Origin: Candidatus Saccharibacteria bacterium RIFCSPHIGHO2_12_FULL_41_12
GTDB taxonomy: Bacteria > Patescibacteriota > Saccharimonadia > Saccharimonadales > 2-12-FULL-41-12
Assembly (NCBI GenBank): GCA_001790445.1
Contig: MGCQ01000008.1
Location: forward strand, 90,676-154,675
Reading direction: 5' to 3'
Length of the DNA stretch: 64,000 nucleotides
Below are positions 487-5,673 of this stretch, one piece after another (position 1 is the stretch's first letter; each line of letters starts with the position of its first letter). Made by a program: the position numbers and the translations under genes. The notes beneath the pieces were generated by a model, which was not told the DNA's origin, searched no databases, and saw nothing but the letters and a program-made list of their open reading frames with translations.

Positions 487-554
487 TTCACTGTACTTCT
501 GTACAGCTCGGTCTGTTTCTCAAAGAGAAATAAAGTTCTGCACTCAAGTCTGAA
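487..554 (+). repeat. intergenic repeat module M1, copy 1
   Basis: TTCACTGTACTTCTGTACAGCTCG...CTGCACTCAAGT. Hand-counted 51/68 ungapped identity to 703-770. The 5' hairpin module recurs at 38229-38252. Confidence 0.6.
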
Positions 555-985: not shown

Positions 986-2953
986 ATGTCAAAACCAGAA
1001 AATTTAGCACCAGGGAGCCAATTCCTACACGAGAGAAACCCCAATCTTCACGCTTCGCAAGAAGTAGAAGGCGTGGTGGGCTATTTGCGTGCTGGCGGTG
1101 AGCATACCCCAAACGAGCCAGCAGATAAGATTTCTGTTCATTTAGGCTTTCTTGCTCATAGAGAATACGTCAATGACGGCATACTAACCGGTGACCAATC
1201 GAGTATTGATCGTCAGATTGAAGCCAATGTCATTAAGGCTGAGGACGTACCGGATGGCTACTTTGAACTCCAGCGTCGTATAGCTCGTGAACAAGGACAT
1301 GGTGACGTCACTATCACCCAAGATATGCGCGGGCAAATGACTGAAGCAGTCCAGGCAGATCAGCGGGTAGGACTTGGCAAATGGGTTGAATATCTAGGCG
1401 GCGAAGATGGTGGCTATCCAGACTGGTTTAAGCACTATACCTTTGGCTCTGTTACCAAGCTTGGTGGCTATGACAAGGACAAGAGCGAATTCCTAAAGCG
1501 AAGCAAGGGTACGACTGCAGCCTACCCCGAGCTGAACCGTGAAGCCTTAGCCTATGTTTACGACGTACTCAATAAGTCAAAAGTCCAGGGCGAAAAGGTT
1601 GATGGCGGTGCCAATAACGAACAGCTTCAAAAGCTACTCGGTAATGCCAACTTTGGCAAACTGTACGCTCATGCCGTACTTGACGTTGCCCCGACCTCAC
1701 CTGAGTTACTGAAGGAAACAAAAGGCTCTTGGACTAAATTCAACCAAACTTCAGACCCAAGAACAGCCCGAAGGCTTTCAGGCTCTTTGCAGGGTCACGG
1801 TACTGGTTGGTGTACGGCTGGAGAGTCTACGGCAAATATGCAGTTGCAGGGCGGTGATTTCTACGTCTATTACACTCGTGACGAAGATGGTAAAGATACT
1901 GTTCCCCGGGTAGCTGTCCGTATGCAAGAAGGTACGGTAGCTGAAGTCAGAGGTGTCAACGCAGCTCAAGAACTTGAGCCCGTAATGGCCGACATTACTT
2001 CTGAGAGATTGCAAGATTTGCCAGGTGGCGAGGTGTACATTCGCAAGGCTGAAGACATGAAACTCTTAACTGCTATCGATAAGAAAATAACAGCCGACCC
2101 ATCTGCTGAACTGACTGGTAGTGAGCTACGGTTCTTGTACGAACTGGACCACGATATTCAAGGCTTCGGCTACGAAACAGATCCACGTATCGGTGAAATA
2201 CGGACCAAGCGTGGTGAGCGGGACAAACAAGAACTTGCCCGCGTATTACCCGAAACCATTCGCGATCAGTTAAGAGGTGCGTTTATGGCCTACAGTACTG
2301 TTGCAGAACAGCTAGGTGCTAGAGAAGTATCATCAAACGAGCTTGAGCATCTCTTTGCTCTTAAAGATAAGCAGTGGCAAGAAAACGGCGTCTATGACTA
2401 TTTGGTGGAGCAGTTGATAGAAAACGGCGCCCGTTTCAACTTAGTAGCAACTCCTAACGTGGAAGCCAGCGAACAACAAATTGTTGCACTGGCTGAAGCC
2501 TTTGGCAAAGATCAGCCATACGAAACGTACGTCTATGACGAACTATACCGCAAGGGTCGCTACACAGGTCGTGAATGGTCTGGTAACTCAGGTAATGCAC
2601 CGGTAAGGCTAAGCCTTATTCCTTCCAAAGCAGATGCTGAAATTAGCTCCAAAACCGTAGACGATCAAGTTCGAATGCTGCGAGATCGACAAGCCAAGCA
2701 GCCTGACCTACATGCCCGTGTTCCGAGCCTGTTGGATGCTGTTACCTACTGGTACAGCTTGCGAGCTGGGGGCGACAAGTTAGCCGACAGCAGTGCATTC
2801 GACAAAACCTACATTCGTCACTTTGACCTTGAGCCTAAAACGGTTGGCGGGTGGTCGATTGTTCCGCGCTCCTACGTGGACTGCGATGGCGGGCCGCGCT
2901 TGCACGGCTCGGGTGCTGGCAGTCAGGGCGGTGTTCGCGTGGCGGTGGGGTAA
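986..2953 (+). CDS. DGR target (variable) protein, 655 aa; N-terminal ~610 aa of unknown function
   Basis: Long ORF whose last 37 codons are the VR. The C-terminus ...WSIVPRSYVDCDGGPRLHGSGAGSQGGVRVAVG resembles C-type-lectin-fold VR ends. No N-terminal hydrophobic segment is visible. Confidence 0.85.
   Translation: MSKPENLAPGSQFLHERNPNLHASQEVEGVVGYLRAGGEHTPNEPADKISVHLGFLAHREYVNDGILTGDQSSIDRQIEANVIKAEDVPDGYFELQRRIAREQGHGDVTITQDMRGQMTEAVQADQRVGLGKWVEYLGGEDGGYPDWFKHYTFGSVTKLGGYDKDKSEFLKRSKGTTAAYPELNREALAYVYDVLNKSKVQGEKVDGGANNEQLQKLLGNANFGKLYAHAVLDVAPTSPELLKETKGSWTKFNQTSDPRTARRLSGSLQGHGTGWCTAGESTANMQLQGGDFYVYYTRDEDGKDTVPRVAVRMQEGTVAEVRGVNAAQELEPVMADITSERLQDLPGGEVYIRKAEDMKLLTAIDKKITADPSAELTGSELRFLYELDHDIQGFGYETDPRIGEIRTKRGERDKQELARVLPETIRDQLRGAFMAYSTVAEQLGAREVSSNELEHLFALKDKQWQENGVYDYLVEQLIENGARFNLVATPNVEASEQQIVALAEAFGKDQPYETYVYDELYRKGRYTGREWSGNSGNAPVRLSLIPSKADAEISSKTVDDQVRMLRDRQAKQPDLHARVPSLLDAVTYWYSLRAGGDKLADSSAFDKTYIRHFDLEPKTVGGWSIVPRSYVDCDGGPRLHGSGAGSQGGVRVAVG
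2839..2952 (+). other. DGR variable region (VR)
   Basis: Gap-free alignment to 3252-3365 (offset 413). 23 of 114 positions differ, all opposite TR adenines. The GC-rich 3' end GTTCGCGTGGCGG is a plausible IMH. Confidence 0.9.
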
Positions 2954-2996: not shown

Positions 2997-3018
2997 AATA
3001 AACTATATATAGTTTATT
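2997..3018 (+). terminator. perfect 22-nt palindrome downstream of the VR (terminator and/or DGR-associated hairpin)
   Basis: AATAAACTATATATAGTTTATT is self-complementary and is followed by GTTATTTT. It starts 45 nt after the VR end. Confidence 0.4.
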
Positions 3019-3251
3019 GTTATTTTGGGGTAAGTAGTCCAAGGTTATACCCATCGGTGCCCTAAGGTGGATGGTTGTTTGCGTTATGCCTAAAGAGACT
3101 CCTTTAGGGGAGCTGATACTTTTTATGGCAGCAAGCACGTCAAGAACCCTTATACCTCACGAATCTTCGGTAGAAGTGCCAAATGGGTGCTGAAAAAATA
3201 GAGGTTCACTAGTCATGCGTGACTGATGAAACAGGATTCTACTGAAGACTT

Positions 3252-3365
3252 AACGGTTGACAGGTGGTCGATTGTTCCGAACTCCTACGTGAACAACGAT
3301 GGCAAGCCGAACTTGAACAACTCGAATGCTGACAATCAGAACGATGTTCGCGTGGCGGAGAGGTA
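3252..3365 (+). other. DGR template repeat (TR)
   Basis: Contains 33 adenines, 23 of them substituted in the VR. Nine AAC/AAT codons in the target frame. The track ORF 3226-3477 is just its translation. Confidence 0.9.
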
Positions 3366-3381
3366 TAGGGTAATTCGGGAT

Positions 3382-3720
3382 CTATTGCACGCTTTTGAGC
3401 CAGCCACCGGTCATCCGGCGGGCTTCGCTCAAACGTGCTTGGATCTTGAGAACGTTCGTTTCGTTGACAAGCTTTAGCTCTAAAATAGCCCTGAGATGCA
3501 GTGAGGTCATCTCTGCAAGAGAGTTGGCTTTAAGCAGATAGCTTGCTTTCAGGGGTTTGGGCGCATGTTTTGCCAGAAGAAGCTGCTCCGTACAACCAGT
3601 CCAGCTCTTAATAGTCTGTTCACCAAGTGAGTAACGATATTTTCTATCAAGCTTCGTGTTGAGCTCCAGTAATTTTTTGTAAATCTCAAAGGCAATAGTA
3701 ATGACAGATAATTCTTCCAT
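3382..3720 (-). CDS. avd: Avd-like accessory variability determinant (four-helix-bundle family)
   Basis: 112-aa helical basic ORF. Its C-terminal ...EARRMTGGWLKSVQ resembles the Avd tail (Bordetella Avd ...VGRILGSWIARV). Adjacent to the TR and RT. Confidence 0.65.
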   Translation of the reverse strand: MEELSVITIAFEIYKKLLELNTKLDRKYRYSLGEQTIKSWTGCTEQLLLAKHAPKPLKASYLLKANSLAEMTSLHLRAILELKLVNETNVLKIQARLSEARRMTGGWLKSVQ

Positions 3721-4666
3721 AGATATAAGTGTAACAAACGTCTGGTTATCTTATATAGTTTTTAGAAAAGGCAAAAAATCTAGCAGGGCAATTGTTGAAT
3801 TTGAAGGCAAGCTACTGGAAAACATAATTAATTTAGCGATGAGTCTTCAAGCTGGCTCGTATCGTCACGATCCTTATTCACACAAGATCATAAAAGACAA
3901 TAAAAGGCGTGATATAGCGGTTGCGTCTGTTAGAGATAGAGTCATCCACCGTATGCTATACGACTACCTTGTACCAATTTGGGACAAAACTTTCATATAC
4001 GATGCGTGGTCTTGCCGTAAAAACAAAGGGCTTCACGAGGCTATAAAGCGCGCGCAGTTGTTTATGCGTAGATACCCGGATGCCTGGGTATGGCGAACGG
4101 ATATAACAAAGCTCTTTGACTCCGTAGATAAAAACAAGCTGAAGTTACTGCTCAGAAAACGCACAAATGACCCTACAGCACTACTGATACTGGATGAGGT
4201 TATTGACAACTACTGCAGCTATGAGAACTCCAGGGGCATCCCAATCGGTAACCTTACAAGTCAAATACTGGCGAATATCTACTTAAACGAGTTTGACCGG
4301 TTTATGAAGCATAAGTTAAAGCCGTTTGCCTATCTGAGGTACGGCGATGATTGGCTATGTTTTGCTGATAGTCAAAGCAAATTGGTCGAGATGCGTAAAG
4401 AGGCCAAAGTATTTCTTAATACTGAGCTTGGTCTGAGCATTCATCCGACTTTAGATTTGATAAAACCAGTGCGTGCAGGCGTTGCATACTTAGGCGTTGA
4501 TCTTTGGTCGAGTGGAAGAAGAGTGGATAATGCGGCGATGCTTAAGCTTAATGCTAATCTCAATGTTCGTAATGGGTCGAGCTATAAGTCCTTACTCGCC
4601 CATCACCACTCAAAAAAGCATCTTAGGAGGTTTGAGTGGATAGCATTGGAGATTATTAGCAAGTAA
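3701..4666 (+). CDS. DGR reverse transcriptase
   Basis: RT motifs: RDIAVASVRDRVIHRML, IPIGNLTSQILANIYL ([I/L]GxxxSQ, DGR hallmark), YLRYGDDWLCFA (YxDD). Confidence 0.9.
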   Translation: MTDNSSIDISVTNVWLSYIVFRKGKKSSRAIVEFEGKLLENIINLAMSLQAGSYRHDPYSHKIIKDNKRRDIAVASVRDRVIHRMLYDYLVPIWDKTFIYDAWSCRKNKGLHEAIKRAQLFMRRYPDAWVWRTDITKLFDSVDKNKLKLLLRKRTNDPTALLILDEVIDNYCSYENSRGIPIGNLTSQILANIYLNEFDRFMKHKLKPFAYLRYGDDWLCFADSQSKLVEMRKEAKVFLNTELGLSIHPTLDLIKPVRAGVAYLGVDLWSSGRRVDNAAMLKLNANLNVRNGSSYKSLLAHHHSKKHLRRFEWIALEIISK

Positions 4667-5363: not shown

Positions 5364-5406
5364 TAGTTGATTTCCTCTACGCGATCTGTTACAATTGAGC
5401 CTAAGA

Positions 5407-5673
5407 ATGATTACTACGGAGAAAAAGGCAGCTATTGTTGCTGACCACGTTAAAGATAAAAAGAACACAGGTGATCCAGCTGTGCAGGTTGGTATTTTGT
5501 CTGCACGAATTGCAGAAATTACTGAACACCTCAAAGTTAACAAGAAAGATTTTATGGCTCGACGTGGACTACTCCAGATGGTAGGCAAAAGAAAACGACT
5601 TCTAAAATATATTGCAGAAAAAGACAGTCAGAAATATCTTGATTTGATTAAAAAACTGGGAATTCGTCGCTAG
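5407..5673 (+). CDS. rpsO: 30S ribosomal protein S15
   Basis: S15-like sequence (LSARIAEITEHLKVNKKDFMARRGLLQMVGKRKRLLKY). ATG 5407 preferred over the track TTG at 5395. Confidence 0.9.
   Translation: MITTEKKAAIVADHVKDKKNTGDPAVQVGILSARIAEITEHLKVNKKDFMARRGLLQMVGKRKRLLKYIAEKDSQKYLDLIKKLGIRR

What the first reader, a model, noticed from the sequence alone, without database searches (positions are those of the whole stretch)
3366..3720. Atypical DGR layout: the Avd-like gene is antisense and fills the whole TR-RT spacer
Seen: the TR ends at 3365 and the RT starts at 3701. The 335-nt spacer between them is almost entirely occupied by the Avd-like ORF on the opposite strand (3382-3720). Its start codon overlaps the RT start head-to-head by 20 nt. 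Established: in the BPP-1 paradigm, avd, TR and brt are co-directional, and the TR-brt spacer RNA provides the priming site and structure for cDNA synthesis. Inference: here any spacer (Sp) function would have to be encoded in the antisense of the avd coding sequence. A TR-to-RT transcript would also be fully complementary to avd mRNA, giving built-in antisense coupling between accessory-protein expression and template RNA. I do not know of this arrangement being characterised.
Basis: partly seen in the sequence, partly recalled or inferred. Interest (0 to 1): 0.6.

Follow-up and report, generated by a model that had tools for sequence, protein, structure and literature searches.

The report
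CPR-type DGR with antisense avd
The backwards-facing accessory gene between the template repeat and the reverse transcriptase is real, but it is the standard, already catalogued layout of diversity-generating retroelements in candidate-phyla-radiation bacteria; the less expected thing here is a conserved structured RNA just upstream of the template.

Summary
TR is 3252-3365, the RT starts at 3701, and a 112-aa minus-strand ORF (3382-3720) fills the 335-nt gap and overlaps the RT start by 20 nt.

The ORF is a genuine Avd. It has 158 homologues, a model with pLDDT 94, and TM 0.84 to Bordetella phage Avd (4DWL).

The layout is not atypical or uncharacterised. Wu et al. 2018 (PMC5758913) list it as architecture B3, TR-(avd)-RT, which makes up 90% of their CPR DGR set. 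In my survey, 69 of 77 informative RT-anchored loci and 69 of 70 informative Avd-anchored loci share it. None has a co-directional avd.

- A 30-bp hairpin starts 9 nt after the TR, inside the last avd codons. It has compensatory changes, but only among close relatives.
- The rest of the spacer shows no covariation.
- The 'empty' gap 5' of the TR (3016-3251) is a strongly covarying structured RNA: 47 of 53 pairs are compensatory across 44 loci. It includes a UGCG-capped hairpin found across the whole family.

Antisense coupling of avd to the TR transcript remains untested.

The parts
986..2953 (+). DGR target gene (655 aa, no Pfam family) carrying the VR at its 3' end
   Evidence: ORF; the VR ends at the stop codon; no family hit.
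2839..2952 (+). Variable repeat (VR)
   Evidence: 114-nt repeat of the TR with 23 mismatches, all at TR adenines.
3016..3251 (+). Conserved structured RNA leader directly 5' of the TR. Helices: 3024-3032/3058-3067, 3076-3082/3131-3137, 3088-3097/3119-3129, 3175-3180/3186-3191 and 3205-3215/3220-3230.
   Evidence: RNAalifold on 12 relatives gives 53 pairs, 22 of them compensatory. The covariance model R1 hit 3016-3262 scores 233 bits. Across 44 loci, 93% of cells pair and 47 of 53 pairs are compensatory. G-U pairs number 235 against 41 A-C, so the + strand is the folded strand. Rfam has no match.
3205..3230 (+). 10-bp hairpin with a UGCG tetraloop (loop 3216-3219), about 36 nt before the TR start
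   Evidence: Every pair is compensatory in A7 and A8. A UGCG- or UGUG-capped stem lies at -51 to -27 from the TR start in 40 of 56 loci across the family, against 0 of 56 in a control window.
3252..3365 (+). Template repeat (TR)
   Evidence: The homology may extend to 3366-3367.
3375..3449 (+). 30-bp hairpin with a UCAU loop, starting 9 nt after the TR and overlapping avd codons about 91-112 on the opposite strand. Candidate Sp-like (Avd-binding) stem-loop.
   Evidence: Energy is -41 kcal/mol and the region z-score is -3.7. The z-score is -3.3 against synonymous-codon permutations. In 15 distinct close relatives, 84.7% of cells pair, 4 pairs are compensatory and 0 of 500 shuffles reach this. 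G-U pairs number 45 against 10 A-C. The hairpin is not recovered in wider alignments.
3382..3720 (-). avd (accessory variability determinant), 112 aa, pI 9.7
3701..3720 (.). Head-to-head overlap of the avd and RT start regions (20 nt; third codon positions of the two frames coincide)
   Evidence: In 65 loci the overlap is 20 nt (35 loci), 17 (11), 23 (7), 26 (4), or 2/8/29/32, always 2 mod 3. Synonymous freedom is lost at avd codons 2-3 and RT codons 4-7.
3701..4666 (+). DGR reverse transcriptase (321 aa)
   Evidence: RVT_1 E 6e-16 and nearest NCBIfam group II RT. The IGNLTSQ motif is invariant in A1. The protein is 100% identical to GenBank A3F37_03890 from Candidatus Saccharibacteria bacterium RIFCSPHIGHO2_12_FULL_41.

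Best explanation
This is an ordinary chromosomal DGR of a Saccharibacteria (CPR) genome, with the cassette order target/VR - noncoding leader - TR - (avd, reverse strand) - RT. That order is the published B3 architecture.

Shown here:
- The TR/VR pair has adenine-only differences.
- Avd is a real, conserved, basic four-helix-bundle protein with the fold of phage BPP-1 Avd.
- avd is wedged tail-to-tail against the TR, and head-to-head, overlapping in a fixed phase, against the RT.
- This geometry is inherited across the whole clade.

Inferred, by analogy with the BPP-1 mechanism in which RT plus pentameric Avd bind structured RNA flanking the TR and cis-prime cDNA synthesis: the functional DGR RNA here is a + strand transcript made of three parts. 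The first is the roughly 235-nt covarying leader (3016-3251), whose UGCG-capped hairpin sits about 36 nt before the TR. The second is the TR. The third is a short 3' tail whose first element is the 3375-3449 hairpin, encoded on the antisense strand of the last avd codons. Most of the RNA scaffold that lies 3' of the TR in BPP-1 (Sp) therefore probably lies 5' of the TR in this family. Only the TR-proximal part of the 'spacer' does double duty with avd coding sequence.

Convergent TR and avd transcription would make the two RNAs complementary. Whether that regulates Avd is unknown.
For: DGR identity.

Avd: 4dwl TM 0.84, rmsd 1.7; 8ub7 RNP chains; pI 9.68.

Layout is the clade norm. The literature agrees: PMC5758913 defines B3 = TR-(avd)-RT as 90% of the CPR set.

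Leader RNA:
- 93% of cells paired, 47 of 53 pairs compensatory, covariation score 0.473 against at most 0.068 when partners are slid.
- an independent MAFFT alignment of 34 non-Saccharibacteria loci gives 22 of 22 predicted pairs compensatory.
- strand asymmetry.
- the leader stays with the TR when no VR is upstream.
- the UGCG hairpin is family-wide.

3' hairpin:
-.
- the C-terminal 34 avd codons are more structured than synonymous permutations (mean z -1.0, n=65), while the middle and N-terminal parts on the + strand are not.

The TR/avd junction is kept when the RT is elsewhere.

BPP-1 RNA elements, including UNCG-capped stem-loops that bind Avd: bioRxiv 10.1101/2023.10.23.563531.
Against: No transcript data exist. 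The promoter and terminator scan found nothing above shuffles.

The 3' hairpin is not recovered as a consensus in 65 diverse loci or in 39 Saccharibacteria loci. Its register differs between clades. The synonymous-permutation signal is as strong on the minus strand, so the strand is argued only from G-U counts on a structure derived from the + strand.

I found no convincing covarying duplex between the leader and the post-TR region, that is, no clear cPRT-Stop or primer duplex.

Alignment A7 is fitted to the model, which inflates pair counts, although A6 and A8 are not fitted. The loci are phylogenetically related, so the p-values are not independent.

The function of the leader is inferred only from its position and conservation.
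Confidence: 0.8

Rival explanations
1. All Sp-like RNA functions (Avd and RT binding, priming) are encoded in the 335-nt TR-RT spacer, antisense to avd. A TR-to-RT transcript that is fully complementary to avd mRNA couples Avd expression to template RNA.
For: There is no noncoding DNA 3' of the TR: the TR-to-avd-stop gap is -6 to +16 nt in about 45 of 47 loci. A TR-proximal hairpin has compensatory changes. The head-to-head overlap is conserved. BPP-1 needs 140 nt of Sp 3' of the TR.
Against: Beyond the first roughly 85 nt, the spacer shows no compensatory pairs in 13 close relatives. No consensus structure appears in wider sets. Synonymous sites of avd are unconstrained except at the RT overlap. 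A far better conserved structured RNA lies 5' of the TR. In five loci the RT is upstream of the target, so no TR-to-RT transcript can exist, yet TR-(avd) is kept.
Confidence: 0.25
2. The 3375-3449 hairpin has no role in the TR RNA. It would be a by-product of the Avd C-terminal codons (RRxxGGW gives C- and G-rich antisense runs), or a feature of the avd mRNA 3' end. All RNA scaffold functions would then sit in the 5' leader.
For: The minus strand shows the same excess of structure. The hairpin register is not conserved outside close relatives. The apex is formed by conserved Gly and Arg codons (alignment).
Against: Window-clade z-scores of about -3 against synonymous permutations show that codon choice, not just amino-acid sequence, makes the stem. 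There are four compensatory pairs and a 45:10 excess of G-U over A-C on the + strand. The middle and N-terminal parts of avd show no + strand signal.
Confidence: 0.3
3. The hairpin is a bidirectional intrinsic terminator that separates the convergent TR and avd transcription units.
For: It sits at the junction of two convergent units. A loosely U-rich stretch (CGUUCGUUUCGUU) follows it on the + strand.
Against: The terminator scan found no site. There is no U-tract directly after the stem. On the minus strand the stem lies inside the avd reading frame, upstream of the stop codon, so termination there would truncate the avd mRNA.
Confidence: 0.08
4. The minus-strand ORF is a chance ORF and this DGR has no Avd.
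For: The Pfam and NCBIfam scores are below the curated cut-offs. A PDB sequence-profile search found nothing.
Against: There are 158 homologues of the same length, many with precomputed PF22296 hits. The model has pLDDT 94.4 and matches 4DWL and the DGR RNP structures. Synonymous sites vary freely while the protein is conserved.
Confidence: 0.01

Closest known systems
DGR cassette architecture B3, TR-(avd)-RT (Wu et al. 2018, Nucleic Acids Res 46:11, PMC5758913)
   Same: The order and strands of TR, avd and RT are identical, and the host group (CPR) is the same. [quoted passage not shown]
   Different: Nothing in the layout differs. The main text of that paper does not mention the fixed-phase start overlap, the abutment of the TR on the avd stop codon, or a structured RNA 5' of the TR. 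Its supplementary tables are not held, so I could not confirm that this exact locus is listed.
Bordetella phage BPP-1 DGR (mtd-avd-TR-brt, architecture B1) and its RT-Avd-RNA complex (Handa et al., bioRxiv 10.1101/2023.10.23.563531; PDB 8UB7 and related entries)
   Same: TR/VR adenine mutagenesis signature. The Avd fold matches (TM 0.84 to 4DWL). The RT is related to group II intron RTs. Structured RNA flanks the TR, including stem-loops capped by UNCG-type tetraloops.
   Different: avd is on the opposite strand and downstream of the TR instead of co-directional and upstream. There is no noncoding Sp. The large conserved RNA structure lies 5' rather than 3' of the TR. No cPRT-Stop-like duplex or priming site could be identified here.
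Retron ncRNA (msr-msd)
   Same: A topological resemblance only: a structured RNA segment lies 5' of the reverse-transcribed template, with the RT gene downstream.
   Different: The RT clade differs. No a1/a2 inverted repeats were found. The product is homed into a VR. This is from my own knowledge of retrons and was not tested here.

Membership tests
Diversity-generating retroelement (DGR) | TR/VR repeat pair whose differences fall at TR adenines | tested here: met
   114 nt with 23 of 23 mismatches at TR adenines, at codon positions 1 and 2.
Diversity-generating retroelement (DGR) | VR inside a protein-coding target, typically at its 3' end | tested here: met
   The VR, 2839-2952, ends at the stop codon of ORF 986-2953.
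Diversity-generating retroelement (DGR) | Adjacent RT of the DGR clade (group-II-like, with the [I/L]GxxxSQ motif) | tested here: met
   RVT_1 at E 6e-16, and the best NCBIfam match is the group II RT. IGNLTSQ is invariant in 44 homologues. That this motif is DGR-specific comes from the literature and my own knowledge.
Diversity-generating retroelement (DGR) | IMH at the VR end and a non-identical IMH* at the TR end | tested here: inconclusive
   The GC-rich ends read GCGTGGCGGTGGGGTAA (VR) and GCGTGGCGGAGAGGTAT (TR). They resemble the TGGGGT / TGGAAT pair reported for nanoarchaeal DGRs (PMC4372165). No function was tested.
Diversity-generating retroelement (DGR) | Demonstrated mutagenic retrohoming | not testable with these tools
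   This needs population sequence data or an experiment.
Architecture B3 (Wu et al. 2018) | Core order TR - avd on the reverse strand - RT, with no other accessory gene | tested here: met
   TR 3252-3365 (+), avd 3382-3720 (-), RT 3701-4666 (+). The definition is quoted.
Avd (bAvd PF22296 / NCBIfam DivGenRetAVD) | Score above the curated family cut-off | tested here: not met
   24.8 bits against a cut-off of 40 (Pfam) and 33.6 against 80 (NCBIfam). Both alignments are full length. Most homologues carry a precomputed PF22296 hit.
Avd (bAvd PF22296 / NCBIfam DivGenRetAVD) | Four-helix bundle of about 110-130 aa with the Avd fold | tested here: met
   pLDDT 94.4 with four helices. Foldseek gives 4dwl TM 0.84, rmsd 1.7 A, and also matches the 8ub7, 8ubb and 8ube Avd chains.
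Avd (bAvd PF22296 / NCBIfam DivGenRetAVD) | Basic protein (Wu et al. report a mean pI of 9.5) | tested here: met
   pI 9.68.
Avd (bAvd PF22296 / NCBIfam DivGenRetAVD) | Homopentamer that binds the RT and the DGR RNA | not tested
   Only a monomer was modelled.
BPP-1-type DGR RNA (TR flanked by Sp elements) | Avd-binding stem-loop immediately 3' of the TR | tested here: inconclusive
   The hairpin 3375-3449 is supported in close relatives. It is not a consensus across the family.
BPP-1-type DGR RNA (TR flanked by Sp elements) | cPRT-Stop duplex between sequences upstream and downstream of the TR, and a short primer:template duplex at the TR 3' end | tested here: inconclusive
   The covariation scan of leader against post-TR columns found only 4-5-bp G-run/C-run pairings with few pair types.

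The most novel reading that the evidence does not exclude
CPR-type (B3) DGRs may use a permuted DGR RNA. Here a roughly 235-nt covarying leader 5' of the TR would take over most of the RT/Avd-binding scaffold role that the 3' spacer (Sp) plays in phage BPP-1. This leader is absent from Rfam and from the DGR papers I could read, and it includes a family-wide UGCG-capped hairpin about 40 nt before the TR. The only 3' element would be a hairpin written on the antisense strand of the last avd codons, so that the TR RNA and the avd mRNA are obligatorily complementary at their 3' ends.
Probability: 0.4. Interest if true: 0.65.

Novelty: already known. Interest (0 to 1): 0.33.

Why it matters
The layout itself changes nothing. 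It is the dominant, published architecture of CPR DGRs, and this locus comes from a public groundwater genome bin.

What could matter is mechanistic. All biochemical and structural knowledge of DGR priming comes from the phage BPP-1 element, where the essential RNA lies 3' of the template. CPR and DPANN organisms hold a very large share of known DGRs, and in their cassette that 3' position is occupied by a gene on the other strand.

The strongly covarying RNA 5' of the TR is a concrete, testable candidate for how these elements assemble their ribonucleoprotein. It also gives a defined RNA to include when someone tries to reconstitute a CPR DGR.

Tried and rejected
- **Consensus folding of the post-TR region.** RNAalifold on 65 diverse loci and on 39 Saccharibacteria loci predicted 0 pairs. 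There is therefore no family-wide conserved structure at fixed alignment columns.
- **Folding the whole spacer.** In 13 close relatives, compensatory support stops after the first hairpin.
- **Long-range covariation scan.** Comparing leader columns with TR 3' end and post-TR columns gave only low-complexity 4-5-bp candidates. I rejected them as evidence for a cPRT-Stop or primer duplex.
- **Synonymous-site entropy along avd**. There is no sequence-level constraint except at the RT overlap, so no conserved sequence motif or promoter is hidden in avd.
- **Promoter and terminator scan**. Nothing rose above shuffles.
- **Rfam**. Only sub-threshold chance hits appeared (ARRPOF, 18.8 bits against a gathering score of 127).
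- **PDB sequence-profile search with the Avd alignment**. There was no hit, and a fold search was needed instead.
- **Wu et al. supplementary table.** I tried to look up this exact locus, but the table is not held. Paul et al. 2017 (PMC5436926) is also not held.
- **TR 3' end pairing with the antisense GGW codons.** This was seen in the folds of L058 and L068, but it does not covary across loci.

Full report
**1. Observation**

The region holds a complete DGR.
- The 655-aa ORF 986-2953 (+) ends with a 114-nt variable repeat, 2839-2952.
- The repeat recurs at 3252-3365 with 23 differences. Every one falls at an adenine of the downstream copy, almost all at codon positions 1 and 2. That fixes 3252-3365 as the TR.
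- A 321-aa reverse transcriptase runs 3701-4666 (+). Its matches are RVT_1 at E 6e-16 and, as the nearest curated family, group II intron RT. It carries the IGNLTSQ motif.
- A 112-aa ORF on the minus strand occupies 3382-3720. The TR-RT gap is therefore 335 nt, the avd stop lies 16 nt after the TR, and the two start codons overlap head-to-head by 20 nt.

Every number in the finding is correct.

**2. The minus-strand ORF is a real Avd**

- It has 158 database homologues. Most are exactly 112 aa, come from Saccharibacteria or Patescibacteria, and many carry a precomputed bAvd (PF22296) hit or the source name 'four helix bundle protein'.
- The N-terminus MEELSVI and the C-terminal ARRxxGGWxKS are nearly invariant.
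- Its own Pfam and NCBIfam scores are full-length but below the curated cut-offs: 24.8 bits against 40, and 33.6 against 80. A PDB sequence-profile search found nothing.
- An AlphaFold model built on 41 homologues is a confident four-helix bundle (pLDDT 94.4).
- Foldseek places the model on the Bordetella phage Avd crystal structure (4DWL, TM 0.84, rmsd 1.7 A). It also matches the Avd chains of the cryo-EM DGR ribonucleoprotein (8UB7, 8UBB, 8UBE) and the related 2GSC and 2RLD bundles.
- The protein is basic, pI 9.68, as Wu et al. report for Avd proteins.
- The 64-kb window holds no second avd, RT or VR.

**3. The layout is neither atypical nor uncharacterised**

Wu et al. 2018 (PMC5758913) classify DGR cassettes. 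[quoted passage not shown] The window's RT is 100% identical to GenBank protein A3F37_03890 of Candidatus Saccharibacteria bacterium RIFCSPHIGHO2_12_FULL_41, a groundwater genome bin. [quoted passage not shown] I could not open their supplementary table to confirm that this locus is listed.

I checked the generality independently.
- **RT-anchored loci.** Of 80 loci from one genome per species, 77 have enough upstream sequence to judge.
  - 69 have avd on the opposite strand, immediately upstream and head-to-head.
  - 1 has it on the opposite strand but further upstream.
  - 5 have it on the opposite strand downstream of the RT.
  - 2 show no avd.
  - None has a co-directional avd.
- **Avd-anchored loci.** Of 80 metagenome loci, 70 are informative, and 69 of those have the RT head-to-head.
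- **TR strand and position.** The TR is always on the RT strand. It ends -6 to +16 nt from the avd stop codon in about 45 of 47 loci, and the VR lies roughly 300 nt further upstream.

**4. Details not mentioned in the papers I could read**

- **The start overlap is conserved in phase.** Across 65 loci the overlap is 20, 17, 23, 26, 2, 8, 29 or 32 nt, always 2 modulo 3. In that phase the third codon positions of the two genes coincide, which is the least constraining antisense phase. Synonymous freedom is lost only at avd codons 2-3 and at RT codons 4-7.
- **The TR-avd junction persists when the RT moves.** In five loci (L058, L059, L064, L068, L070) the order is RT - target/VR - TR - (avd). 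In the four that retain avd (L064 is cut at the contig end), the TR still sits 12-57 nt from the avd stop. The TR/avd tail-to-tail junction is thus a module in its own right. A TR-to-RT read-through transcript cannot be a universal requirement.

**5. Is Sp function encoded antisense to avd?**

On the + strand, a 30-bp hairpin with a UCAU loop starts 9 nt after the TR (3375-3449, -41 kcal/mol). The region folds better than dinucleotide shuffles (z = -3.7).

Evidence from close relatives:
- In 15 distinct relatives with Avd at least about 80% identical, 84.7% of cells pair and four pairs show compensatory changes. No shuffle out of 500 reaches the observed covariation.
- G-U pairs, which are possible only on the + strand, outnumber A-C cells 45 to 10. 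This count is biased, because the structure was derived from the + strand.

Evidence from a null that permutes synonymous codons within each avd gene:
- The last 34 codons are more structured than expected across 65 loci: mean z -1.0, and about -3 in the window's clade.
- The middle and N-terminal thirds are not, on the + strand (z -0.12 and -0.05).
- The minus strand gives a similar value for the C-terminal third, so this test does not assign a strand.

Evidence against a general element:
- RNAalifold finds no consensus pairs in 65 diverse loci or in 39 Saccharibacteria loci.
- The hairpin register differs between clades.
- The remaining roughly 250 nt of spacer has no compensatory support, even among close relatives.
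- Synonymous sites of avd are otherwise free.

My reading is that one TR-proximal stem-loop plausibly does double duty with the last avd codons. It would correspond in position to the BPP-1 Avd-binding stem-loop, Sp 3-33. The bulk of the spacer shows no sign of RNA-level function.

**6. A conserved structured RNA 5' of the TR**

The roughly 300-nt 'empty' interval between the VR and the TR is not empty. From about 3016 to the TR start, the sequence is highly conserved among relatives, with invariant blocks and visibly compensatory hairpins.
- RNAalifold on 12 relatives predicts 53 pairs, 22 of them with compensatory changes.
- A covariance model built from that alignment finds full-length matches in 44 loci. 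Each lies directly 5' of the TR on the TR strand.
- On that model-fitted alignment, 93.1% of cells pair and 47 of 53 pairs have compensatory changes. The covariation score is 0.473, against at most 0.068 when partners are slid and 0.163 in shuffles.
- G-U pairs outnumber A-C 235 to 41, so the + strand is the folded strand.
- An independent MAFFT alignment of the same interval from 34 loci of other CPR phyla also yields a structure. All 22 predicted pairs covary, including a 9-bp helix and a hairpin with a UGCG loop.
- A stem of at least 4 bp capped by UGCG or UGUG lies 27-51 nt before the TR start in 40 of 56 loci across the whole family, including the RT-displaced ones. The control window gives 0 of 56. 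In the window this hairpin is 3205-3215/3220-3230.
- The leader stays with the TR when the target is not upstream (L018, L061).
- Rfam has no match. The DGR papers I could search do not mention the element. Handa et al. examined only 40 nt upstream of the TR.

**7. Most likely mechanism**

Established for BPP-1 (bioRxiv 10.1101/2023.10.23.563531): the RT and pentameric Avd are wrapped by RNA flanking the TR. UNCG-capped stem-loops grip Avd. A duplex between upstream and downstream flanks positions a cis-primer at the TR 3' end.

For this cassette I infer a + strand RNA made of leader + TR + a short 3' tail. Most of the protein-binding scaffold would be moved to the 5' side, and the first 3' stem-loop would be written on the antisense strand of avd.

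Not shown: transcript ends, the priming site, which element binds which protein, and whether TR/avd complementarity regulates Avd. I could not find a covarying duplex linking the leader to the post-TR region. The promoter scan is uninformative.

**8. Verdict**

The interpretation as an unusual, uncharacterised layout is not supported: this is architecture B3, the norm in CPR.

The mechanistic inference is partly supported for the TR-proximal hairpin only. It is overtaken by a better candidate, the 5' leader.

The finding as written scores low for novelty. The leader RNA and the fixed-phase overlap are modestly interesting leads for DGR specialists and are recorded separately.

Noticed in passing
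window 3016-3262 (+): A roughly 235-nt strongly covarying structured RNA lies directly 5' of the TR, in what looks like an empty VR-TR gap. It has full-length covariance-model matches in 44 Saccharibacteria-type loci, and a homologous version occurs in other CPR phyla. It is not in Rfam or in the DGR papers I could read.
   Followed up: yes
window 3205-3230 (+); the same position in L059, L061, L064, L068, L070 and others: A hairpin capped by a UGCG (sometimes UGUG) tetraloop sits 27-51 nt before the TR start in 40 of 56 loci across the family, against 0 of 56 in a control window. UNCG-capped stem-loops bind Avd in the BPP-1 complex.
   Followed up: partly
L058 4995-7406, L059, L064, L068, L070: A variant cassette has the order RT - target/VR - TR - (avd). 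The RT is displaced, but in the four loci that retain avd the TR still lies 12-57 nt from the avd stop codon on the opposite strand (L064 is cut at the contig end before avd).
   Followed up: partly
window 3725-3733 (RT codons 9-11): Synonymous-site freedom in the RT is reduced beyond the avd overlap (S10 ratio 0.29, L11 0.34). This stretch lies in the 13 nt just upstream of the avd ATG on the minus strand. It may be an avd translation or transcription initiation signal. Neither start codon has an obvious Shine-Dalgarno sequence.
   Followed up: no
window 487-549 and 703-765; 839-890; 941-982: Upstream of the target gene there is a 63-nt imperfect direct repeat (79% identity, 216 nt apart). 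Two perfect-centre palindromes also occur: 26-nt arms at 839-890 and 21-nt arms at 941-982. Their function is unknown.
   Followed up: no
window 5387-5460 (+): A weak, sub-threshold Rfam match to the ribosomal S15 leader (19.6 bits against a gathering score of 39.5, E 0.36) lies at the start of the rpsO-like ORF 5395-5673. The match is plausible but unproven.
   Followed up: no
L008, L034, L041, L056, L057, L068, L069, L072: The same CPR-type cassette appears on contigs binned as Oceanicoccus, Gammaproteobacteria, Pseudomonadales, Bdellovibrionales or Dormiibacterota. This reflects either mis-binning of CPR contigs or horizontal transfer.
   Followed up: no
L037, L041, L062, L076, L077, L079, L080: The RT match is split over two ORFs (for example L079 5001-5564 and 5681-6091). 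These may be decayed or frameshifted DGRs, or assembly errors.
   Followed up: no
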